A stretch of DNA of 29,228 nucleotides from a virus, in IMG/VR virus record IMGVR_UViG_3300010338_000991; one strand, 5' to 3'. Position numbers and translations under genes: made by a program. This document shows positions 1-29,228 of this stretch, in pieces. The number at the start of each line of letters is the position of its first letter. Within the stretch, counting starts at the first letter, position 1. The notes beneath the pieces were generated by a model. That model saw only the letters and a list, made by a program, of their open reading frames with translations. It ran no database searches and was not told where the DNA came from.

Positions 1-127
1 CAGAGATACAATTTAGGATTTCAGACGCTCTTGATCTTTGGATCGATTTAGCCAAATCAACAAACTTTGATGTAAAGGCTGCGGAACAAAAAGTGATACA
101 TTTGCGACCATCAACCGGAGATTATAC
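1..127. repeat. Terminal overlap copy 1: identical to 29102-29228 (circular contig closure or short terminal redundancy)
   Basis: Direct comparison of the two window ends; 127 nt identical, and the reading frame of the tail gene is preserved across the junction. Confidence 0.85.
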
Positions 128-4125: not shown

Positions 4126-4344
4126 ATGGATTACTTAATATTCGACACCGAGCAGGAAGCAATGGCATATAGCCATGCTGAAGCTGTAAGACATGGACAT
4201 GGTAAACTGAACTCCACTATACAGTATTGGTGGGCATGGCGAGAGACAGTAGATGGGAAATGGGCTGTGCAGTGTCCAGATGGCACGGAAGAAGAACCGA
4301 TTTGGAAACCACTGGAGGTGGAAGATGAAGATGAAATTGACTAA
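4126..4344 (+). CDS. Hypothetical small acidic protein (72 aa)
   Basis: ORF with acidic C-terminus (EVEDEDEID); no recognisable motif. Confidence 0.35.
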   Translation: MDYLIFDTEQEAMAYSHAEAVRHGHGKLNSTIQYWWAWRETVDGKWAVQCPDGTEEEPIWKPLEVEDEDEID

Positions 4345-4627
4345 TACATGGAAACACTTAGGCGTCATGCTATTGCTTGGTCTCGCAGCTTGGGCTTTCG
4401 CTTACTTCGGCAAGGCGCATGGCTTTGGCTGGTTCCCGAATGTGGCAGCGTTTATGGTCACCGTTTATGTTGAGTATCGTCAATGGTCTTTGAGCGGTAA
4501 GCCGTTCTGGACTCTGGTGCGTGAGCGGGGATTCGATACACTCATTGACATCGCTGCGGGAAACCTCGGCTTCTGGCTCGGATACAATCTGCTACTCAAA
4601 CTAACGGCTGGCGGATGGATAGTATAA
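4325..4627 (+). CDS. Holin-like small membrane protein (about 100 aa; ATG at 4325 or 4331)
   Basis: GGAGG shortly upstream of ATG 4325; two to three hydrophobic helices; immediately upstream of and overlapping the endolysin start. Confidence 0.45.
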   Translation: MKMKLTNTWKHLGVMLLLGLAAWAFAYFGKAHGFGWFPNVAAFMVTVYVEYRQWSLSGKPFWTLVRERGFDTLIDIAAGNLGFWLGYNLLLKLTAGGWIV

Positions 4628-4995
4628 TGGCACGGCTATCAAAGAACTTCACCACAGACGAGTTCGCTTGCAAGTGTGGCTGCGGATACGATACGCCTAA
4701 TCCAGAGCTTATCAGAATGCTTCAGGATGCACGTGACCTATATGGCAAGCCAATACGCATCACAAGCGGATGCAGATGCATAAAGCACAATCGCAATGTG
4801 GGCGGAACAGCGAACTCTGCGCACATCTCAGGGATGGCTGTTGACATCGCCACCCCCACCGGTGAATCTCGCTATCTGATAATCGAGTCACTCATGGCAG
4901 CTGGATTCAAGCGCATAGGGATAAACTTCAAACAACGATTCGTTCACGCAGACATAGACGATTCAAAGCCACACCCCACGATCTTTAGCTACTAA
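4615..4995 (+). CDS. Endolysin, peptidase M15 family (alternative ATG at 4627)
   Basis: Motifs FACKCGCGYD, ITSGCRCIKHN, GGTANSAHISGMAVD, FVHADID typical of Peptidase_M15_3 zinc peptidases; small single-domain enzyme. Confidence 0.8.
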   Translation: MDSIMARLSKNFTTDEFACKCGCGYDTPNPELIRMLQDARDLYGKPIRITSGCRCIKHNRNVGGTANSAHISGMAVDIATPTGESRYLIIESLMAAGFKRIGINFKQRFVHADIDDSKPHPTIFSY

Positions 4996-5360: not shown

Positions 5361-5552
5361 ATGTCAAAATTCACGCAGCGCCAACACAAGGCCCTGGCTG
5401 CTATTTCAGCCAGAACAGCGCACCTGCGCCCGTTCGCCGATTGCAGCCCGCAGGTGCGCGCCGAGCGTATTGAGCGCGCTACAGGTGACGGGTGGGGGGC
5501 GTTCTCATATTTTTGTGAAACGTATTTCCCACATATATTTAGCTTACCTTAA
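5361..5552 (+). CDS. Hypothetical protein (63 aa), GC-rich
   Basis: ORF only; weak ribosome-binding site; GC content clearly above the rest of the genome. Confidence 0.25.
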   Translation: MSKFTQRQHKALAAISARTAHLRPFADCSPQVRAERIERATGDGWGAFSYFCETYFPHIFSLP

Positions 5553-7288: not shown

Positions 7289-7566
7289 TATCTTGCCTCG
7301 CAATTTTCGCACACGTAATAATTGCCATGATCAGCCACCTGCTTCCATGTATATAGTCTGCCGCATTTGCCACAGCGAGCTATGCTATGCGCTTTGATTT
7401 TTTCGTATTCCTTGCCTAAGTTTTTTAGCGATCTGCGCAAGGCAATTTCTGTCTCTGCGTGTTTCAAACTCGCTCTTATCCTGTGCTTATCAATTAGCTT
7501 TGCTCGGCGGGCAAAATAACCCGCCAGAGCAATTGCGATAATGGTTATGCATATCATTATGATCAT
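7288..7566 (-). CDS. Membrane-anchored zinc-ribbon protein (about 92 aa; ORF track extends to 7608)
   Basis: AAGGAG 8 nt upstream of ATG 7566, which overlaps the RecT stop (ATGA); N-terminal TM helix; C-terminal CGKCG..CENC. Confidence 0.4.
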   Translation of the reverse strand: MIIMICITIIAIALAGYFARRAKLIDKHRIRASLKHAETEIALRRSLKNLGKEYEKIKAHSIARCGKCGRLYTWKQVADHGNYYVCENCEAR

Positions 7567-11218: not shown

Positions 11219-11258
11219 TTTTTACTCCTTATTTTAGTCCACCTTTTTCAGGACACCT

Positions 11259-11286
11259 CAGCCAGGCGGGAGATCCCGCCTGGCTG
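11259..11286. repeat. Perfect 12-bp-stem hairpin (CAGCCAGGCGGG agat CCCGCCTGGCTG) abutting the IS end
   Basis: Inverted repeat read directly; 10 nt downstream of the stop of gene 11297-11539; no U-tract on either strand. Confidence 0.5.
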
Positions 11287-11296
11287 GGTAAATGTT

Positions 11297-11539
11297 TCAG
11301 CATCCGCAGGGAGTTCCCCCGCGGTATATTCTACCGCAGGAGTACTCCTCTTCCTCCCACTGACACCCGCAATGGGTGCAGTGCACCACCCTTGTTCCGA
11401 GATAGTAGGTCCCGTTGGGACCCCTATCTTCATCGCAAACGAGGGGGTTCCGATACTCTGCGAGGAGGTATTTCTCCTCGATGAGCCTTGCGGCGAGAAG
11501 ATCGCCGCAAAGATTTGTTAGGGTCATTTGCTTTTTCAT
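11297..11539 (-). CDS. Small Cys-rich protein (80 aa)
   Basis: AAGGAG upstream of the ATG; CTHCGC..C..CGC cysteine pattern. Confidence 0.4.
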   Translation of the reverse strand: MKKQMTLTNLCGDLLAARLIEEKYLLAEYRNPLVCDEDRGPNGTYYLGTRVVHCTHCGCQWEEEEYSCGRIYRGGTPCGC

Positions 11540-14352: not shown

Positions 14353-14820
14353 GTGAAGACAAATAAGCTTAAATTCAATCCCAATAATCCTCGCAAATGT
14401 AGTAAAGACAAGCTTGAAAAACTTATGCGCTCAATCGAATCATTCCCTGAAATGATGAAGTTGCGCCCAATGGTTTACGATCCCGAAACCATGTATGTTT
14501 TAGGCGGGAATCAGCGCCTCGCAGCTATTAGAAAGCTCGGCATGAAAGACATCCCGGATGAGTGGACGATCGCCGCCACAGATCTCACCCCAGAACAGCA
14601 AAAGGAATTTGTTCTGCGAGATAATGTGCAGTTCGGCGATTGGGACTTTGAGATGCTGTCTGCTGAGTTTGGCGAATTTGATCTTGAAGAAATGGGCATG
14701 GATATGCCAGAGATAGAGGCAGAAGAGCCATATGTCCCAAGTGAAACTAAAGAAATTGACACAGATATAGCATTTGATCACAAGTGCCCAAAATGTGGAT
14801 TTGAGTTTAATGAATCTTAG
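14353..14820 (+). CDS. ParB-like nuclease (ParB/Srx) domain protein with C-terminal zinc ribbon
   Basis: GGAGG 5 nt upstream of a GTG start; N-terminal KLKFNPNNPRK...MYVLGGNQRLAAIRKLG resembles the ParBc domain; C-terminal CPKCG. Confidence 0.6.
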   Translation: MKTNKLKFNPNNPRKCSKDKLEKLMRSIESFPEMMKLRPMVYDPETMYVLGGNQRLAAIRKLGMKDIPDEWTIAATDLTPEQQKEFVLRDNVQFGDWDFEMLSAEFGEFDLEEMGMDMPEIEAEEPYVPSETKEIDTDIAFDHKCPKCGFEFNES

Positions 14821-15829
14821 ATATAACATTAAAGACATTGCAGATATAGAAAAGACGCATAAAGCATTTTCTACTTTTGCGTGTGGTGGGGGATCGTCAA
14901 TAGGCTACAAACTGGCAGGGATTGAAGTTATTGGAGCAAATGATATTGATCCTGAAATGAAGTGGCACTATACAAAAAACCTTAACCCATCGCTATATTA
15001 TTTATGCCCAATATCTGACATGATATCAATGGAATTGCCAAACGAGCTTTTTGCCCTTGACATATTAGATGGATCACCTCCATGCTCAACTTTTAGCACA
15101 TCTGGGAACAGAGAAAAGGATTGGGGCAAAAACAAATACTTTAGGGAAGGTCAAGCAAAGCAAGTTCTTTCTGACTTGTTTTTTGACTACATAGACCTTG
15201 TCAAAAGGCTACAGCCAAAAGTATCTATATCAGAAAATGTAACTGGAATTATCAAAGGAAATGCTAAATATTACGCCAAAACAATAGTGCAAAAACTTGA
15301 TGAAGCAGGATATGTTACTCAAGTTTTTCAGATAAACGCAGCAAATTGCGGTGTCCCTCAAATGAGAGAACGCGTGTTTTTTATAAGTAGGCGCAAAGAT
15401 ATAGACAAAAAACCACTTGTATTATCACCAAAAGAAAAAATACTTACTGTATGGGATGCTATACACGACATACAGGATTTGACAGATGATGAGATTAGGG
15501 ACACAGCCCCAAATAACACTGACTTGAAATATTGGAACAAAACCAAGCCAGGATGCAGCTATTCAAGCGTTCACGAAAAAGGCAGCTTTTTTTCTTATTA
15601 TAGGCTAAACAAAGACAAACCAAGCAACACTATCCAAGCAAACCATCAATGTTATACTCACCCATCAGAATGCAGAAACCTAACTTTTAGAGAAGTCAAA
15701 AGACTGTCGTCATTTCCAGATGATTACGAAGCAAAAACAGATAACATCGGGAAGTATATGTGCGGAATGAGTGTGCCTCCATTTATGATGTATCAAGTAG
15801 CAAAAGCAGTAAAAGAGCAGTGGCTATAA
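14810..15829 (+). CDS. DNA (cytosine-5)-methyltransferase (ORF track starts at a TTG at 14774)
   Basis: Motif I FACGGGSSIGYKLAG, catalytic PC motif GSPPCSTFS, ENV motif ISENVTG, QxRxR motif VPQMRERVFF. Confidence 0.85.
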   Translation: MNLRYNIKDIADIEKTHKAFSTFACGGGSSIGYKLAGIEVIGANDIDPEMKWHYTKNLNPSLYYLCPISDMISMELPNELFALDILDGSPPCSTFSTSGNREKDWGKNKYFREGQAKQVLSDLFFDYIDLVKRLQPKVSISENVTGIIKGNAKYYAKTIVQKLDEAGYVTQVFQINAANCGVPQMRERVFFISRRKDIDKKPLVLSPKEKILTVWDAIHDIQDLTDDEIRDTAPNNTDLKYWNKTKPGCSYSSVHEKGSFFSYYRLNKDKPSNTIQANHQCYTHPSECRNLTFREVKRLSSFPDDYEAKTDNIGKYMCGMSVPPFMMYQVAKAVKEQWL

Positions 15830-15865
15830 TGTGTGATGAGACAATATCCGGACAAGGAGTATCGA

Positions 15866-16813
15866 ATGATTAGAACCGCTGAATGTGTAACGCCGAAGCA
15901 TCCAGACAAGCTGTGCGACCGCATAGCTGATGCCATATTGACGGAGGCAATAAAGCAAGATCCAAACGCCAGAACGGCAATAGAAGTTTGTGCCGGTCAT
16001 GGCATTGTGACCGTTCTGGGCGAAATGACAACCACAGCCTTTGTTGATGTTGCTGACATAGCCCGCAGGATTACAGATGGTGAGTGCGGCGTGCAAGTCA
16101 ATATTGTGCGACAGTCACCCGACATAGCGATGGGAGTTGATGCCGGAGGCGCCGGAGATCAAGGCATTATGATCGGATATGCCTGCAACGAAAATGATAA
16201 TTTTATTCCTACGGAATTAAACCTCGCCAGAGATTTGTGCCAATTCATTTATATGCGACACGAAGTTGACGGCAAAACTCAAATCACAATGGACGGCAAT
16301 AAAATATCAACTATTGTCGCAAGCTTTCACAACACAAAGAGCGGAGATCTGAGATCCCTTGTGCACCAGTGGCTTGATGGCAGAAAATGCGAATCGATAA
16401 TGTGTAATCCTGCCGGCGATTGGAAAACCGGCGGGCTTAACGCTGATTCTGGCGTAACGGGAAGGAAACTTGCCATAGACAACTACGGAACCAGAACACC
16501 CATTGGCGGCGGCGCATTTAGCGGAAAAGACCCCACCAAAGTGGATCGCTCTGCCGCGTATATGGCAAGAAAAATTGCTGTCGATATCTTGCGCCAGAAA
16601 AATGCAAAAGAAGTTATCGTTTCGCTTGCTTATGCAATCGGCGTTCCTGATCCGGTAATGACGGAGTGTATTGCCGATGGAAATCATGTTGACATTTCAC
16701 ACTACAGCTTGACACCAAAAGCAATTATCGATGCGCTTGGGCTTCGTGATATTGATTATGAAAAAACAGCAGCGTGGGGGCACTTCGGCATCGGCATGCC
16801 GTGGGACAAATAA
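15866..16813 (+). CDS. metK: S-adenosylmethionine synthetase (MetK), compact form of about 315 aa
   Basis: AAGGAG 6 nt upstream of ATG 15866; motifs KHPDKLCDRIADAILTEA, GAGDQGIMIGYA, DGKTQIT, GGGAFSGKDPTKVDRSAAYMARKIA and C-terminal TAAWGHFG, aligning with bacterial MetK. Confidence 0.85.
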   Translation: MIRTAECVTPKHPDKLCDRIADAILTEAIKQDPNARTAIEVCAGHGIVTVLGEMTTTAFVDVADIARRITDGECGVQVNIVRQSPDIAMGVDAGGAGDQGIMIGYACNENDNFIPTELNLARDLCQFIYMRHEVDGKTQITMDGNKISTIVASFHNTKSGDLRSLVHQWLDGRKCESIMCNPAGDWKTGGLNADSGVTGRKLAIDNYGTRTPIGGGAFSGKDPTKVDRSAAYMARKIAVDILRQKNAKEVIVSLAYAIGVPDPVMTECIADGNHVDISHYSLTPKAIIDALGLRDIDYEKTAAWGHFGIGMPWDK

Positions 16814-22438: not shown

Positions 22439-22855
22439 ATGGCTTATAAAAATCGTTCCTATGTCGTGGATCAAAAATTGATCCTTAGCTCCGCACAAGC
22501 CCTGCCGAACAAAACAAGCGCAGATTCCACCAATGTCGTTGACTTTGGCGGAAACTCTGGCGGACTTGCCAAAATTGTAGTCAAGGCAAACACCAACATC
22601 GCTGTTGCAAACACATATAAATTGACCATTGTAGCCAGCTATGGATCCACCAGCACACCGACTGATACGTTGGACAAGGTGCTCTTTACCAAAACAGCTC
22701 CGGCAGCTGGCTTTTCTTATGCCGCTGGAGACACCATCGTAGAAGAGATTATCCCGGATTCGCTCCCTGATAACTATCATTTCCTTAAACTAACCTATAC
22801 CACCACAGCCAATGAGTCAAATGAGAAAGTTGATGCCTATGTGGTGATGACCTAA
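22439..22855 (+). CDS. Hypothetical virion protein (138 aa; head decoration or Ig-like candidate)
   Basis: Thr/Ser-rich beta-like composition directly after the capsid gene. Confidence 0.35.
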   Translation: MAYKNRSYVVDQKLILSSAQALPNKTSADSTNVVDFGGNSGGLAKIVVKANTNIAVANTYKLTIVASYGSTSTPTDTLDKVLFTKTAPAAGFSYAAGDTIVEEIIPDSLPDNYHFLKLTYTTTANESNEKVDAYVVMT

Positions 22856-22868
22856 CACTCCCTCCCGA

Positions 22869-22897
22869 GCGGGGCGGTTTCCTCCTTGCCGCCCCGC
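22869..22897 (+). other. GC-rich hairpin (GCGGGGCGG, 11-nt loop, CCGCCCCGC) after the capsid block
   Basis: Perfect 9-bp stem read directly; no U-tract follows, so a terminator role is uncertain. Confidence 0.4.
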
Positions 22898-22911
22898 ACA
22901 TTTAAGGATGT

Positions 22912-24480: not shown

Positions 24481-24674
24481 AAATGAAATCAATCAATGAT
24501 AAGCCCATTTACGGCGTTTACGATGGCAAAGCGTATCTGCTGGACGGCGAGCCAAGAGACTATCCAGAAGCCGTCAAAATGGCATATGCCGATATCTTAA
24601 TTGACGCAGAACCTGCACCGGAAGCAGAGGAAGCAATCGAACCGGATGACAACGAATATGATGGAGGCTACTAA
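24477..24674 (+). CDS. Hypothetical small acidic protein (65 aa)
   Basis: Start overlaps upstream stop (ATGA). Confidence 0.35.
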   Translation: MKMKSINDKPIYGVYDGKAYLLDGEPRDYPEAVKMAYADILIDAEPAPEAEEAIEPDDNEYDGGY

Positions 24675-25666
24675 TGGCTAAAAGATTTGGAAATCAATAC
24701 AGAATCGCTATTGGCAAAGAGACAAGCTACGGTAGTGGCTTCACGAAGACAAGCACAAGCGGAACGCCTGTAGTCGGAAGCGTGGCATGGACTGATCTGC
24801 TTGTCCATTCCGGCGTTATCAATATGACGCCCACAATCAACACTGCTCAAACGACATACAAAAGCGGATTGACCGTAACGCATCCCTGTGAAGAAGTGCA
24901 GACTACCTCGATGGGAACCGTTACCGTTTCTGGCGACGCATCTCTTGCTATCCTCCAAAAATATATTGGCGGGGTGATGGTTGAACGCGCATTTCCACCG
25001 GCTATGGTGTTTCCTGCAGATACAGCAGATATTCCTTCTTTCGTGCTGTATCAGATTTGGGATGATGCCCCCTCTGAAGGGAAATTCAAAGTTAATCGCG
25101 TCAAGGGCGCAAAATTGCAACAGCTTGTCATTACCGGCTCACAGGGTGGACTTATCCAATTTGAGGCTACATTCGAGACGCAGACCGTAGAGCGCGAAGT
25201 TCAGCAAGAAATAACTGGCATTGATCCCGGCAGAATCTGCGGAACAGCGCTTCAGTTTGGTGAGGTAGATGCGAGTTTGGCGATGGGCAATGCGGCTACC
25301 GCATTAGACACATTCTCCATAACATTCACAAACGAGTTTACTGCTGATGCGTCCAAATTTGCCAATAATATGACGCTGTTCAATCCGCATATCATAAAAC
25401 AAGGCGGCGAGATTAGCTACACTTGTAATTACGACAGTGCTGGAGCGGAAATTAACTTAAGCATTATTAGCGACCCAGAGACGATTAATACCGACACGAT
25501 AACTATAATGTCTGGAGTAAATTACTTTCAGGCTATTATTCCCAGTATTGCAACATCGCTTGATGTGCCGGACGTTGAGCGCGATTACTTCAAGCTTAAC
25601 TACACAGGTCGCATTATAAGTGATGGCGTAAGCAATGTGCCAGAAGTTAATATCTCAAACGCATAG
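24674..25666 (+). CDS. Major tail (tube) protein candidate (330 aa)
   Basis: GGAGG upstream; position immediately before the chaperone pair and tape measure. Confidence 0.45.
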   Translation: MAKRFGNQYRIAIGKETSYGSGFTKTSTSGTPVVGSVAWTDLLVHSGVINMTPTINTAQTTYKSGLTVTHPCEEVQTTSMGTVTVSGDASLAILQKYIGGVMVERAFPPAMVFPADTADIPSFVLYQIWDDAPSEGKFKVNRVKGAKLQQLVITGSQGGLIQFEATFETQTVEREVQQEITGIDPGRICGTALQFGEVDASLAMGNAATALDTFSITFTNEFTADASKFANNMTLFNPHIIKQGGEISYTCNYDSAGAEINLSIISDPETINTDTITIMSGVNYFQAIIPSIATSLDVPDVERDYFKLNYTGRIISDGVSNVPEVNISNA

Positions 25667-25676
25667 GAGATAAACA

Positions 25677-26027
25677 ATGAGCAAATTCAAAAACTGTTTC
25701 GCTACGGCGAATGATATGCGCGACTATGATATCGTCATTGACGGTGAGATCGTAGCGAAGGCGCATACTCTGACGATTCAGGATAAAGCGGAAATAGAGC
25801 GCAAGAGCATCACAAAAACCTTAAACGCGAACGGCGTCAATACGGACATCAATTCTAATGCGCTCATGCTTTATACCGTATTGCGCGCTTTGGATTCATG
25901 GATCATTGACGCACCGCTAAACGAAGAGAACCTTGGCAAACATCCGATGCTGATGGACATGTTCAATGCCGTTACCCAACACGAAACAGATGTTGCCCAA
26001 ACCATGCGAGATAATGAAAAAAACTGA
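25677..26027 (+). CDS. Tail assembly chaperone (G-like)
   Basis: Small acidic protein directly upstream of the tape measure gene, ending in the slippery heptamer A_AAA_AAC just before its stop. Confidence 0.55.
   Translation: MSKFKNCFATANDMRDYDIVIDGEIVAKAHTLTIQDKAEIERKSITKTLNANGVNTDINSNALMLYTVLRALDSWIIDAPLNEENLGKHPMLMDMFNAVTQHETDVAQTMRDNEKN
26018..26024 (+). other. Programmed -1 frameshift site (A AAA AAC) giving a G-T fusion chaperone
   Basis: Heptamer is in X_XXY_YYZ phase with the 25677 frame; the -1 frame is open from here into ORF 26036-26350. Confidence 0.55.
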
Positions 26028-26035
26028 TACGATCG

Positions 26036-26350
26036 GTGGAGGTCTTATTCCGCACAGACCCCGCCGATCCATTCCGAGATAATAACATGAAAACGTCCAT
26101 GTGTCGCCACTGCGAGTTAGACCAAACCTGCGAAAAACTACAGGATTACCCTAAAATCAGCCATCTATCCGCGTGGCTGATTAAGTGGCATTATGAAATT
26201 GAGGCGGGATTTGTGATCTATCCGCGTGGTGGCTCGTGGGAAAACCAATGGCAATGGTTCATCGATGGTCTCGGCATCGTGCGGAACACTGTTGCGCAAG
26301 AAGAAATGCGAAAAGCTCAAGAAGGATCGAAAAAACATGGCAGATTATAG
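26036..26350 (+). CDS. Tail assembly chaperone T-extension (expressed as a -1 frameshift fusion with 25677-26027)
   Basis: ORF in the -1 frame relative to the G gene, overlapping the tape measure start. Confidence 0.5.
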   Translation: MEVLFRTDPADPFRDNNMKTSMCRHCELDQTCEKLQDYPKISHLSAWLIKWHYEIEAGFVIYPRGGSWENQWQWFIDGLGIVRNTVAQEEMRKAQEGSKKHGRL

Positions 26351-28811
26351 CGGAGACCTTAAATATCGCATCACCGTAGATGGCGCAGAGGCGTCACAAG
26401 CTAAGCTTTCCGGTCTCGGAGCTTCGTTCAAGAGTGTCGCTTCGACCGTCGCAGCAAGTGTTGCAGCGATGGTGTCCTTCCGAAAAGCAATCGAGTTTGC
26501 TGGCAATGCAATGGCAAACTACGAGAATGCGATCCGAGCGGTACGCCAGCTTGACGCGACCCTGGTGTCCACCGGCAGAGCAGCAGAATTCACCTCGCAA
26601 GAACTCAAGAATATGGCTTCAGAGCTGCAAAGGCTAAGCAATTTCGGTGATGAAGACATACTGCAGGGCGTAACGCTGCAGCTGCTTCGCTTTGATGCCA
26701 TCGGTAGGGATATCTTTCCACGCGCACAGCAGCTTGTAATTGACCTTGCCGAATCTATGGGCGGTGTAGAAAATGCTGCAAGAACTCTTGGCATCTCTTT
26801 GGCTGACCCGACTCTTGGTCTCACGCGCTTACGCAGAATAGGCGTGGCCTTTAATTCCACACAGGAAGCGCAAATTAAAAACTTTGTGGAGACAGGTAAA
26901 GTAGCTGAGGCACAAGCGGTTTTGATGTCTGCGTTAGAGGAGCGTTTTGGCGGATTGGCTTTGGCGTCTGTATCTGCGACCACACAAATGAAAAATGCTT
27001 GGGGCGATTACTTAGAAAGCGTTGGATCTTCGCTCTCCTTTTTCGATGGAGTCAAACGCGGCATTACTGCAATGTTGGTCAGTGTAGCGGGGGCGCACGA
27101 TGTTACATCGAAATCCGCTCAGCTTGCTGCGCTGGAAACACAAAAAGCTTGGGGTGAGGCAACAATAAACATTGGCAATATTATAGCCGATATATCTACC
27201 GGAGTTGTTGCTGTTATACATGGCGTGATCAAGGCGTTTGATTTTGCCGGGAAGGCGATCCCCACTGCGCTTGGGCTCGCTATGGAAGGAGCGCATTTAG
27301 TCGTTGCGTCTTCAATGAATTCCATCGTTGACCTAATTTTCTCACCAATAGAAGGCTTGTTTAATGATATTGATGCTGTTTATGCTAAAATAACTGGGAA
27401 ATCGCTTGGTATTACCAATGCCTTTGACGCTGTACGCATCGATGTTACTGGTGTAAGGGCAGACATTTCCAGCAGCGCAGACGATCTTTCTTTGTTATGG
27501 ATTGATGTTAAGGAGTTTTATCGCACGTGGGGAGATGTTGCCTCCGGTATCGCGACAGGAAAATTTAGCAACGCAGACGAACAAATTAAATTGCTGCGCG
27601 AAGGCATTGACGCACAGCGTAAGGCAATTGAAAACGGGCTTCTAAACATAGATTTGCCTGAATCAAAAGGCAGCAAGGAAGATCGCGGCGGCATGGGCGG
27701 CGATATTGCGCAAATTACAAACTATTATGATACCATAATGGCATTAAACAATAGCACATCGCAGCAGATCATGGATAAGTACAACAAAATGCGTGCTGCG
27801 CTTGACGAATATTTGCGCGCCAATACCAAAAGCCAAGAAGAGTATCAAAACAAGCTTAGACTTGGTCTAGCAGAAATCGCCAAAGCAGAAACAGCCGAAT
27901 TGGCTGCGGAAAAAGAACGCCAGCTGTCTATGGTAGAATCCTTTGTCAATTCTGTTATCAATCTTAATGCGTCTGAAAAAGATGCCATTGCCAAAAAGTA
28001 TGCGGATATGCGCACAACAGCAGAAGCATTTTATGCGGACGGCTTGATGTCTGAACAAGCGTTTAGCGATGCAATTACACAAATAAACCAAGCAGAACTT
28101 GATGCCATTACAAATTTGGAAGCTAAACGTCTTGATCTGCGCATACAAACGCTTGGTAGCATTCGCGGTTTTGAAGATGAGTTTTACCATGCCAGGATTA
28201 CACAGATTGACGCCGAAACCGAAAAGTTGCGCGAAGCAGGATTAGCAGAGATAGAAATTGAAGCATGGAAGCTGCAGCAGATAGCTGAACTTGAAACTGA
28301 AATTCACCAGCGCAGAATTGACCAAATGTCTGAATATGAGCGCTTTGTTCTGGGTTCCGATCAGCGGATAATGAACACGCTGGAAGGCTCTCTTGCCAAT
28401 TCACTCGCAAGCATGATTTCCGGGACCAAATCCGCATTAGATGTGTGGAGATCTCTTTGGGCGAATGTTGCGCAAGCCGTTATTGCAGAAATCAGCAAAA
28501 TTATCGTAAAGGCACTATTCGCCAACACATTGCTCAAGGGCTTGGGCATGATCGGCAATTTTTTCTTCCCCGCAGCTGGAATAATAACACCAGTTGTAGC
28601 GCAAGGCGCAAATTTGCTTAGCAACAATCCTATACACAACACGCCAACAATCCCAAGCAATAACAACAATGTCGTGCAATTGATGAGGAAAATAGATTCA
28701 TTAATTGAATCGATAGAAAATAACCCGCCACAAATATATACTCAATTAATAGAAGGCGTTCCGCTCAATAATGCAGTGCGCAGGGCTTCGGTGATGGCTA
28801 ATGAGTTATAA
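26337..28811 (+). CDS. Tail tape measure protein (about 824 aa; ORF track starts at 26226)
   Basis: Long Ala/Glu/Lys/Gln-rich protein after the chaperone pair; hydrophobic Gly-rich C-terminal segment. Confidence 0.75.
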   Translation: MADYSGDLKYRITVDGAEASQAKLSGLGASFKSVASTVAASVAAMVSFRKAIEFAGNAMANYENAIRAVRQLDATLVSTGRAAEFTSQELKNMASELQRLSNFGDEDILQGVTLQLLRFDAIGRDIFPRAQQLVIDLAESMGGVENAARTLGISLADPTLGLTRLRRIGVAFNSTQEAQIKNFVETGKVAEAQAVLMSALEERFGGLALASVSATTQMKNAWGDYLESVGSSLSFFDGVKRGITAMLVSVAGAHDVTSKSAQLAALETQKAWGEATINIGNIIADISTGVVAVIHGVIKAFDFAGKAIPTALGLAMEGAHLVVASSMNSIVDLIFSPIEGLFNDIDAVYAKITGKSLGITNAFDAVRIDVTGVRADISSSADDLSLLWIDVKEFYRTWGDVASGIATGKFSNADEQIKLLREGIDAQRKAIENGLLNIDLPESKGSKEDRGGMGGDIAQITNYYDTIMALNNSTSQQIMDKYNKMRAALDEYLRANTKSQEEYQNKLRLGLAEIAKAETAELAAEKERQLSMVESFVNSVINLNASEKDAIAKKYADMRTTAEAFYADGLMSEQAFSDAITQINQAELDAITNLEAKRLDLRIQTLGSIRGFEDEFYHARITQIDAETEKLREAGLAEIEIEAWKLQQIAELETEIHQRRIDQMSEYERFVLGSDQRIMNTLEGSLANSLASMISGTKSALDVWRSLWANVAQAVIAEISKIIVKALFANTLLKGLGMIGNFFFPAAGIITPVVAQGANLLSNNPIHNTPTIPSNNNNVVQLMRKIDSLIESIENNPPQIYTQLIEGVPLNNAVRRASVMANEL

Positions 28812-29228
28812 ACTTGTTTACATTGATCACAATGATTACGAGCACACTTTTTATAATGTGCTTAATTTTAGCATTGATCCTATACAAGCTAATACAGACA
28901 ACATTTTTACTTCATCCGGCAGAAAGCTAAGCATAACAATCCCCTATGATGCTTCCGCCATAAACGCATTCCACAATAACGATCAGCCGAATGAAATATA
29001 TCCGGAATATTTAGCAGGGCACTTTAGATTCTTTAAGGATAACGAAGTAATTTTTATTGGCATGGCAAAAGTTACATTTATCGACATTGATGAGCAGAAT
29101 GCAGAGATACAATTTAGGATTTCAGACGCTCTTGATCTTTGGATCGATTTAGCCAAATCAACAAACTTTGATGTAAAGGCTGCGGAACAAAAAGTGATAC
29201 ATTTGCGACCATCAACCGGAGATTATAC
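28801..29228 (+). CDS. Tail protein, 5' part (ATG at 28801 overlapping the tape-measure stop; runs off the window end and continues at 1-1184; full product about 494 aa)
   Basis: Open frame from ATG 28801 with no stop to the window end; the last 127 nt equal bases 1-127 and the frame matches ORF 93-1184; position immediately downstream of the tape measure gene. Confidence 0.5.
   Translation, partial: MSYKLVYIDHNDYEHTFYNVLNFSIDPIQANTDNIFTSSGRKLSITIPYDASAINAFHNNDQPNEIYPEYLAGHFRFFKDNEVIFIGMAKVTFIDIDEQNAEIQFRISDALDLWIDLAKSTNFDVKAAEQKVIHLRPSTGDY
29102..29228. repeat. Terminal overlap copy 2: identical to 1-127
   Basis: Same as above; unique genome length is therefore about 29101 bp. Confidence 0.85.

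What the first reader, a model, noticed from the sequence alone, without database searches (positions are those of the whole stretch)
25677..26350. Canonical -1 programmed frameshift in the tail-assembly chaperone pair
Seen: the slippery heptamer A_AAA_AAC at 26018-26024 sits in X_XXY_YYZ phase immediately before the stop of the first gene, and the -1 frame stays open for about 108 more codons into the tape measure start. Established: the G/GT frameshift upstream of the tape measure gene is conserved in long-tailed phages. This supports the siphovirus-like assignment and the identity of the flanking genes.
Basis: partly seen in the sequence, partly recalled or inferred. Interest (0 to 1): 0.45.

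Follow-up and report, generated by a model that had tools for sequence, protein, structure and literature searches.

The report
Phage tail-chaperone G/GT frameshift site
This is a genuine but ordinary example of the well-known "slip back one base" signal that lets a tailed phage make a short and a long version of its tail-assembly chaperone, here with a conserved RNA hairpin that probably boosts the slip.

Summary
A_AAA_AAC (26018-26024) is in X_XXY_YYZ phase in the last two sense codons of a 116-aa ORF (25677-26027). The -1 frame has a TGA at 26015-17, so the heptamer is the only place where a -1 shift can join the frames. The -1 frame then runs 108 codons to TAG 26348-50, overlapping the tape measure start (ATG 26337, not 26338).

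The motif alone is not rare in the window. What carries the case:
- The heptamer is invariant in about 30 loci from four clades (G identity down to 26%).
- All but two of the full-length representatives of 34 protein clusters end in K-N.
- Substitutions right after the site are synonymous only in the -1 frame.
- One clade has no start codon for 42 codons of conserved -1 sequence.
- A 14-bp hairpin (26031-26069) lies 6 nt downstream and is kept by compensatory changes.
- The G model has the tail-assembly-chaperone fold (YqbN, HK97; Mu FS-gp41).

Verdict: a real, previously unannotated -1 programmed frameshift producing G (116 aa) and GT (224 aa). It is a new member of a known kind. The frameshift does not by itself indicate a siphovirus, because myoviruses have it too. 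Nothing was tested experimentally.

The parts
24674..25666 (+). Probable major tail (tube) protein, 330 aa, immediately upstream of G
   Evidence: Weak Pfam Phage_tube_2 match (E 0.0016, 18.6 bits, below the 27-bit cut-off). The syntenic homolog in L048 scores 25.9 bits. The position between the neck genes and G/GT is conserved in L020 and L048.
25665..25669 (+). Shine-Dalgarno-like AGGAG, 7 nt upstream of the G start codon
   Evidence: Read directly from the sequence.
25677..26027 (+). Gene G: tail assembly chaperone, 116 aa, product of standard decoding (stop TGA 26025-26027)
26015..26017 (+). TGA stop in the -1 frame immediately 5' of the heptamer; it limits the possible shift window to the heptamer
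   Evidence: Also present in clades A, B and C.
26018..26024 (+). Slippery heptamer A_AAA_AAC in X_XXY_YYZ phase (P-site AAA Lys, A-site AAC Asn)
   Evidence: Phase verified. Invariant in all loci of four clades plus intermediates. The terminal K-N is invariant in the 35-sequence family alignment.
26025..26030 (+). 6-nt spacer (UGAUAC; its first three bases are the 0-frame stop codon)
   Evidence: Substitutions here are synonymous in the -1 frame.
26031..26069 (+). Stimulatory RNA hairpin: 9 bp, bulged A26040, 5 bp, 10-nt loop (26046-26055)
   Evidence: MFE -23 kcal/mol, z -3.8, 0 of 200 shuffles fold as well. Top 0.2% of all 46-nt windows. 100% of cells paired against 28-50% for slid controls. 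Four pairs with changes on both sides across three clades. Equivalent hairpins in L020 (z -5.75) and L048 (z -4.64). Not terminator-like.
26024..26350 (+). T segment: 108 codons in the -1 frame plus TAG 26348-26350, translated only as the C-terminal part of GT. GT = join(25677..26024, 26024..26350), 224 aa
   Evidence: [quoted passage not shown] Homologous in clades C and D. No family match.
26337..28811 (+). Tape measure protein, 824 aa; its start overlaps the end of GT by 14 nt
   Evidence: PHROG tape measure families (phrog_27166 E 4.5e-30 and three others). Pfam TMP_2 is weak.

Best explanation
Genes 25677-26027 and 26024-26350 form the G/GT tail-assembly chaperone pair of a small (~29.1 kb) siphovirus-like phage.

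Most ribosomes translate G (116 aa) and terminate at UGA 26025. A minority slip. With tRNA-Lys on AAA (26019-21) and tRNA-Asn on AAC (26022-24), they slide back one base onto AAA AAA (26018-23) and continue with CUG at 26024 in the -1 frame. The result is a 224-aa GT fusion reading ...NEKN-LIRSVEV....

The slip is promoted by a stable 14-bp hairpin that begins 6 nt after the heptamer. This resembles the dnaX and IS-element arrangement. The hairpin plausibly compensates for A_AAA_AAC being a weak bacterial shift site.

By analogy with phage lambda, the G part would coat the tape measure protein, and the T part would recruit the tube protein.

Shown here (computationally): the sequence anatomy, its conservation, -1-frame coding from the slip site, hairpin covariation, the TAC fold of G, and the TMP identity.
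Inferred: that the slip happens at all, its efficiency, the exact ribosomal step, and the binding roles of G and T.
For: Anatomy and phase. The -1 stop at 26015-17 and the 0-frame stop at 26025-27 bracket exactly the heptamer. This is the only heptamer of 204 in the window with that ORF configuration.

Heptamer conservation:
- Identical at the DNA level, including synonymous positions, in clades A (~95% G identity), B (~80%), C (34%) and D (26%) and in intermediates.
- 34 clusters at 50% identity. All full-length members end ...K-N, and K115 and N116 are two of only three invariant columns.

The -1 frame is translated from the slip site:
- In 26024-26087, synonymous/non-synonymous counts are 55/14 (vs clade B) and 24/0 (vs clade A) in the -1 frame, against 14/48 and 0/24 in the 0 frame.
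- GTG 26036 is GTA in clade B.
- Most clade C loci have no ATG, GTG or TTG for 42 codons after the slip, although the conserved LIR.VE and C-R-x-C...C motifs lie there.
- The T segment is homologous in clade D (hhalign 95%, E 3e-8).
- Gene callers assign T inconsistent starts of 83, 87, 101 and 104 aa.

Hairpin.

G is a TAC. TMP downstream.

Literature: the G-T frameshift is conserved in long-tailed phages, A_AAA_AAC is used for g-t in HCTV-2, and A_AAA_AAC is much less shift-prone than A_AAA_AAG in E. coli (PMC5009743).
Against: - No experimental evidence exists: no fusion peptide and no reporter assay.
- DNA-level evidence covers only four clades plus intermediates, so the covariation rests on few independent events.
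- The 5' arm of the hairpin also encodes a conserved peptide, so part of its conservation could be protein-driven.
- A_AAA_AAC is a weak shift site in E. coli, and the host here is unknown.
- Pseudoknot formation was not evaluated.
Confidence: 0.9

Rival explanations
1. Transcriptional slippage. RNA polymerase stutters on the A7 run (26017-26023) and adds one A to a fraction of the mRNAs. Standard translation of those mRNAs then gives a G-T fusion with the junction ...NEKK-LIR....
For: There is an uninterrupted run of seven A's. Transcriptional slippage on A-runs is used productively in bacteria, for example in Thermus dnaX and Shigella spa13 (PMC5009743). The protein outcome would be almost identical.
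Against: Clade D (TCA AAA AAC) and the representatives ending S/L/V-K-N can have only six A's, which is short for polymerase slippage. The conserved unit is the heptamer including the final C, with Asn invariant in 35 of 35 sequences. Slippage on a homopolymer would not require that. A hairpin conserved by compensatory changes 6-8 nt downstream is the signature of a ribosomal stimulator, not a polymerase one.
Confidence: 0.05
2. Same -1 ribosomal frameshift and same product, but by a different step. Slippage occurs after translocation, with the heptamer tRNAs in the E and P sites (or peptidyl-tRNA-Asn alone in the P site). The slowly decoded stop codon UGA/UAA sits in the A site and provides the pause.
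For: The 0-frame stop directly abuts the heptamer in all four clades and, judged from C-termini, in 33 of 35 family members. Such tight conservation suggests the stop may be part of the signal. The review describes P-site-only models for dnaX variants (PMC5009743).
Against: Two family members (P0028 ...VKNS, P0044 ...VKNLKKQSG) keep K-N but lack an immediately adjacent stop. The 6-nt spacer to the hairpin fits the classic P/A-site geometry. Sequence analysis cannot separate the two models.
Confidence: 0.2
3. There is no recoding. The downstream ORF is translated independently, from GTG 26036 or ATG 26088, or by termination-reinitiation, and the heptamer is incidental.
For: A GTG at 26036 and an ATG at 26088 exist in the window. 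AAAAAAC is common in this genome. Gene callers do call a separate ORF.
Against: GTG 26036 is GTA in clade B, and ATG 26088 is Leu or His in clades C and D. Most clade C loci have no start codon for 42 codons. The stretch from the heptamer to 26087 evolves under -1-frame purifying selection. No SD-like motif precedes 26036. The heptamer is invariant at synonymous positions.
Confidence: 0.03

Closest known systems
Phage lambda G/GT tail assembly chaperone frameshift (Levin et al. 1993; Xu, Hendrix & Duda 2004, 2013, 2014; summarised in PMC5009743)
   Same: Two overlapping ORFs lie between the major tail protein and tape measure genes. [quoted passage not shown] The second ORF has no start of its own. 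The short product is expected to be in excess over the fusion. The G model has a TAC fold shared with the HK97 chaperone.
   Different: The heptamer is A_AAA_AAC rather than G_GGA_AAG. It occupies the last two sense codons, with the stop directly adjacent. A conserved, covarying 3' hairpin is present; to my recollection, lambda's site needs no downstream structure (from memory, not checked here). There is no detectable sequence similarity to lambda G or T. The T segment carries a conserved C-x2-C-x5-C motif.
E. coli dnaX and IS3-family (IS911-type) -1 frameshift cassettes
   Same: A-rich heptamer (dnaX: A_AAA_AAG) followed after about 6 nt by a stable stem-loop that stimulates the slip (PMC5009743).
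   Different: No conserved upstream Shine-Dalgarno-like stimulator. The Z base is C, so the A-site tRNA is Asn rather than Lys. The biological role is a virion assembly chaperone. No Rfam frameshift element matches.
g-t frameshift of haloarchaeal siphovirus HCTV-2
   Same: Uses the same A_AAA_AAC heptamer for tail chaperone G-T expression (PMC5009743).
   Different: Archaeal host. I did not compare the sequences or check HCTV-2 for a downstream structure.
Pfam PF08748 Phage_TAC_4, and XkdN/YqbN-like TACs (PF08890 Phage_TAC_5; PDB 3klu)
   Different: The window's own G gives no hit to these models even at E <= 1. Sequence identity to structural matches is 9-11%.

Membership tests
Phage G/GT tail-assembly-chaperone -1 programmed frameshift (lambda paradigm) | Two overlapping ORFs located between the major tail/tube gene and the tape measure gene | tested here: met
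   Probable tube gene 24674-25666, G 25677-26027, T 26024-26350, TMP 26337-28811. The same order is found in L020 and L048.
Phage G/GT tail-assembly-chaperone -1 programmed frameshift (lambda paradigm) | Slippery X_XXY_YYZ heptamer in phase inside the overlap of the 0 and -1 frames | tested here: met
   A_AAA_AAC 26018-26024. The overlap window is exactly these 7 nt. Invariant in four clades.
Phage G/GT tail-assembly-chaperone -1 programmed frameshift (lambda paradigm) | Downstream ORF lacks its own conserved start and is coding from the slip site onward | tested here: met
   Synonymous/non-synonymous counts of 55/14 and 24/0 in the -1 frame. GTG becomes GTA in clade B. No start codon for 42 codons in most clade C loci.
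Phage G/GT tail-assembly-chaperone -1 programmed frameshift (lambda paradigm) | Upstream ORF is a tail assembly chaperone | tested here: met
   Relatives hit Phage_TAC_4 (14 of 35, best E 1.7e-5). AF2 model pLDDT 90.4. Matches YqbN, the HK97 TAC, Mu FS-gp41 and annotated TACs.
Phage G/GT tail-assembly-chaperone -1 programmed frameshift (lambda paradigm) | A GT fusion protein is actually made, at a low fixed ratio to G, and is required for tail assembly | not testable with these tools
   Needs proteomics, a reporter assay or genetics.
Phage G/GT tail-assembly-chaperone -1 programmed frameshift (lambda paradigm) | G binds the tape measure protein; the T domain binds the major tail protein | not testable with these tools
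   Inferred by analogy only. T has no detectable homolog of known function.
Stem-loop-stimulated bacterial -1 PRF cassette (dnaX / IS3 type) | Stable 3' stem-loop about 5-9 nt downstream of the heptamer, supported by covariation | tested here: met
   6-nt spacer, -23 kcal/mol, z -3.8. 100% of cells paired and compensatory changes at 4 pairs. Equivalent hairpins in clades C and D.
Stem-loop-stimulated bacterial -1 PRF cassette (dnaX / IS3 type) | Upstream Shine-Dalgarno-like stimulator | tested here: not met
   The 12 nt upstream differ between clades (gcgagataatga, gcttggtaatga, tgagaataatga, agagggcatctc). Only L048 has a GAGGG-like motif. This was inspected by eye only.
Pfam PF08748 Phage_TAC_4 | Score above the family's gathering threshold | tested here: inconclusive
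   The window's G has no hit at E <= 1. 14 of 35 relatives hit at E <= 1 (best 1.7e-5), and whether any passes the gathering score was not shown.
Rfam frameshift elements | Covariance-model match | tested here: not met
   No match at E <= 10 in 25600-26450.

The most novel reading that the evidence does not exclude
This divergent, unannotated TAC family (at least 34 clusters at 50% identity, binned with MAGs of several phyla) may use a fixed three-part recoding cassette: A_AAA_AAC, an immediately adjacent stop, and a covarying 3' hairpin. That would be a dnaX-like, structure-stimulated version of the G/GT shift, and it might set a GT:G ratio different from lambda's ~1:30. It would deliver a new type of T domain with a conserved Cys3 (C-x2-C-x5-C, possibly metal-binding) motif.
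Probability: 0.25. Interest if true: 0.4.

Novelty: new member of a known kind. Interest (0 to 1): 0.25.

Why it matters
In practical terms, it corrects the annotation of this phage and about 30 related metagenomic contigs. There, G and T are both labelled "hypothetical protein", and T is given arbitrary start codons. It also defines a TAC family recognisable by its invariant ...K-N C-terminus.

Scientifically, it adds a clean, comparatively well-supported example of a phage G/GT frameshift that carries a conserved, covarying downstream hairpin on a weak bacterial heptamer. That could be useful for training frameshift predictors such as PRFect, and for studying how shift-site strength and stimulator strength are traded off. 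It does not change our understanding of the mechanism or of tail assembly.

Tried and rejected
- blastn and tblastn of the region, G and a distant relative against 50,697 cultured-phage records found no match. There is no cultured reference.
- The window's G and T, and T from four clades, gave no match against Pfam and PHROGs. Profile searches against PDB sequences gave only noise.
- The first AF2 model of G, built on a shallow 8-sequence alignment, reached only pLDDT 49 and was discarded. The 35-sequence alignment gave a usable model.
- P0012/L021 looked like a 58% T relative but is an error-ridden assembly with broken frames, so I discarded it.
- P0040, P0016 and P0029 were not found in IMG/VR. 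The metagenome scan with P0040 gave three spurious low-complexity or unrelated hits (L049, L050, L052) and one distant TAC-like gene (L051).
- Rfam gave no match.
- The hairpin as an intrinsic terminator was rejected. It has no T-tract and was not picked up by the terminator scan.
- A loop-to-downstream pseudoknot was considered by eye. Only a weak, non-conserved A/U pairing is possible, and I did not pursue it.
- The G_GGA_AAC at 4558 was considered as a second frameshift site and judged most likely a chance overlap.

Full report
**1. The observation**

Reading the sequence and the ORF table: the ORF at 25677-26027 (116 aa, preceded by AGGAG 7 nt upstream) ends ...GAT AAT GAA AAA AAC TGA. The heptamer A_AAA_AAC at 26018-26024 therefore lies exactly in X_XXY_YYZ phase. 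AAA (26019-21) and AAC (26022-24) are the last two sense codons, and the stop follows at once.

In the -1 frame there is a TGA at 26015-17. After it the frame is open from 26018 to TAG 26348-50, which is 108 codons after the slip. The region in which a -1 shift can fuse the two ORFs is thus exactly the seven bases of the heptamer.

The tape measure ATG is at 26337, not 26338.

**2. Is it more than chance?**

The motif by itself is not. AAAAAAC occurs 15 times on the two strands against 7.2 +/- 2.6 expected. There are 204 XXXYYYZ heptamers in all.

The configuration is unique, however. Only 26018 combines a 0-frame ORF of at least 80 codons upstream, a 0-frame stop within 15 codons and at least 60 open -1 codons.

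**3. Comparative evidence for the slip site**

No cultured phage matches, but metagenomic relatives do. These are IMG/VR clade A (~95% G identity, L001-L010) and clade B (~80%, L011-L017). Clade C comprises L020 from a Flavobacteriales MAG bin plus IMG/VR loci, with G 34% and T 41% identical. Clade D is L048, with G 26% identical at BLASTP E 8e-10, and T matching by hhalign at 95% probability and E 3e-8. L053-L056 are intermediates.

In every locus the G homolog ends xxA AAA AAC followed by a stop, and the -1 frame continues for 98-114 codons into a tape measure gene. The flanking codons differ between clades (GAT AAT GAA, GGT AAT GAA, AAT AAT GAA, ATC TCA). Lys is always AAA and Asn is always AAC, so the constraint acts on nucleotides.

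An exhaustive profile search found 34 clusters at 50% identity. All full-length representatives carry (E/S/L/V)-K-N at, or in two cases near, the C-terminus. In a 35-sequence alignment with 31% mean column identity, the only invariant columns are W75, K115 and N116.

**4. Is the -1 frame translated from the slip site?**

In the 21 codons between the heptamer and the first ATG (26024-26087), synonymous/non-synonymous codon differences in the -1 frame are 55/14 against clade B and 24/0 against clade A. In the 0 frame they are 14/48 and 0/24. These counts include related sequences. In distinct events, that is about nine synonymous and two non-synonymous codon changes between the window and clade B.

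Yet the conserved LIR.VE and C-R-x-C-x5-C motifs lie in that stretch.

Public gene calls give the T piece starts at 83, 87, 101 or 104 aa, and every member is labelled 'hypothetical protein'. Independent initiation and termination-reinitiation are therefore effectively excluded for the family.

**5. A stimulatory structure**

Six nucleotides after the heptamer, 26031-26069 folds into a hairpin of 9 bp, a bulged A, 5 bp and a 10-nt loop. Its MFE is -23 kcal/mol, with z = -3.8 and 0 of 200 shuffles folding as well. That puts it in the top 0.2% of all 46-nt windows on both strands.

Clade B folds identically (-18.6 kcal/mol, z -3.7). On the A/B alignment, 100% of cells pair, against 28-50% when partners are slid. 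Five of 14 pairs vary, and all remain paired.

In a structure-aware three-clade alignment, all 14 pairs are standard in all 12 sequences. Changes on both sides occur at four pairs: U-A/G-U, G-C/A-U, G-C/A-U and G-C/U-A. Intermediates show the stepwise path.

The 3' arm encodes non-conserved peptide (RTDPADP in the window, ANQNSTV in clade C). Pairing, not protein, is what is preserved there.

Clade C (-20.8 kcal/mol, z -5.75) and clade D (-22 kcal/mol, z -4.64) have hairpins of different sequence at the same place. The hairpin is not followed by a T-tract, the terminator scan does not flag it, and it matches no Rfam family.

The depth is limited to four clades. The shuffle control is not a probability. 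The 5' arm is also under protein constraint. I did not evaluate pseudoknots.

**6. Identity of the proteins**

The TMP is secure (phrog_27166, E 4.5e-30).

The window's G has no direct family hit. However, 14 of 35 family members hit Pfam Phage_TAC_4 and 2 hit Phage_TAC_5.

T has no detectable relatives of known function.

The upstream 330-aa protein is a probable tail tube protein: Phage_tube_2 at 18.6 bits here and 25.9 bits in the L048 homolog, both under the 27-bit cut-off.

**7. Mechanism**

Best explanation (about 0.9): a -1 programmed ribosomal frameshift on A_AAA_AAC stimulated by the 3' hairpin. It yields G (116 aa) and GT (224 aa, join(25677..26024, 26024..26350), junction ...NEKN-LIRSVEV...). 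According to PMC5009743:
- The lambda G/GT shift sets a ~30:1 ratio and is widely conserved in long-tailed phages, including P2-like myoviruses.
- A_AAA_AAC is the g-t site in HCTV-2.
- A_AAA_AAC is much less shift-prone than A_AAA_AAG in E. coli. This gives a rationale for the accompanying hairpin.

Rivals:
- *Transcriptional slippage on the A-run (about 0.05).* This is disfavoured for three reasons. Clade D and the S/L/V-K-N members can have only six A's. The final C (Asn) is invariant. The conserved structure lies downstream.
- *A post-translocation E/P-site or P-site slip with the adjacent stop in the A site (about 0.2, as a variant of the main model).* It gives the same product and cannot be separated by sequence. 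The near-universal adjacent stop hints that it may contribute.
- *Independent translation of T (about 0.03).*

**8. Comparison with what is known, and novelty**

This is a member of the lambda-type G/GT class by every feature I could test. It differs from lambda in three respects: the heptamer, the directly abutting stop, and a conserved 3' hairpin that makes the cassette resemble dnaX or IS3 signals, though without a conserved upstream SD-like element.

The frameshift shows that the phage is long-tailed, not that it is a siphovirus. That follows instead from the gene order capsid - neck - tube - G/GT - TMP with no sheath gene.

Verdict: real, well supported computationally, previously unannotated, and ordinary in kind.

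Noticed in passing
window 1-127 and 29102-29228: The window has an exact 127-bp direct repeat at its two ends, which indicates a circular (complete, ~29.1 kb) assembly. The ORF that starts at 28801, just at the TMP stop, runs off the 3' end and presumably continues at the window's start.
   Followed up: partly
window 4558-4564 (ORF 4253-4627 and ORF 4615-4995): A second in-phase heptamer, G_GGA_AAC, lies near the end of ORF 4253-4627, with the -1 frame open for 143 codons. That -1 ORF is an endolysin (phrog_894, E 8.6e-35) with its own ATG at 4615. This is most likely an ordinary gene overlap, perhaps holin-endolysin, and not recoding. Conservation was not checked.
   Followed up: partly
window 26102-26131 (T segment residues 27-36); L020 2478-2507; L048 ~2932-2961: The T segment carries a conserved C-R-x-C-x5-C motif in all four clades, together with a conserved W-(E/D)-(N/Q)-(Q/P)-x-(Q/D)-W-F motif. 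This may be a metal-binding or disulfide element. I do not know it as a feature of T domains.
   Followed up: partly
window 26330-26336: A second AAAAAAC directly abuts the tape measure ATG (26337). In the T frame it reads AAA AAA C, which is not in X_XXY_YYZ phase. It is probably just an A-rich translation initiation region.
   Followed up: no
window ~22856-22910; ~11241-11353 (both strands); ~5416-5463; ~7496-7543: These are the other very stable local hairpins, with a 46-nt MFE of -23 kcal/mol or lower. The one at ~22856 lies just after ORF 22439-22855, downstream of the major capsid gene, and could be a terminator or attenuator. The 11.2-11.35 kb one is stable on both strands, in a T-rich intergenic region between divergent gene blocks.
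   Followed up: no
L051 ~2210-2237 (Ga0233415_10000347): A distant TAC-like gene (37% identity to P0040 over 57 aa) ends ATG GGA AAA TAG, a lambda-like G_GGA_AAA in phase, with 78 open -1 codons. Related chaperones therefore use a different heptamer.
   Followed up: partly
L019, L020, cluster member P0060: MAG bins carrying these phage contigs are assigned to unrelated phyla: Pseudomonadota, Flavobacteriales, and Rectinema sp. of the Spirochaetota. The contigs are short (1.8-3.1 kb for the two MAG loci, L019 and L020), so host assignment is unreliable and the real host is unknown.
   Followed up: no
L021 (ena:ERZ1645045:ctg7161): This contig is a heavily frameshifted, apparently error-ridden assembly of a related phage. 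Its 'protein' P0012 is an artefactual chimera of frames.
   Followed up: yes
window 14774-15829 and 15833-16813: A DNA methyltransferase (phrog_116, E 2.8e-67) and a strongly conserved protein of unknown function (phrog_1569, E 1.3e-92) lie immediately upstream of the small terminase gene.
   Followed up: no
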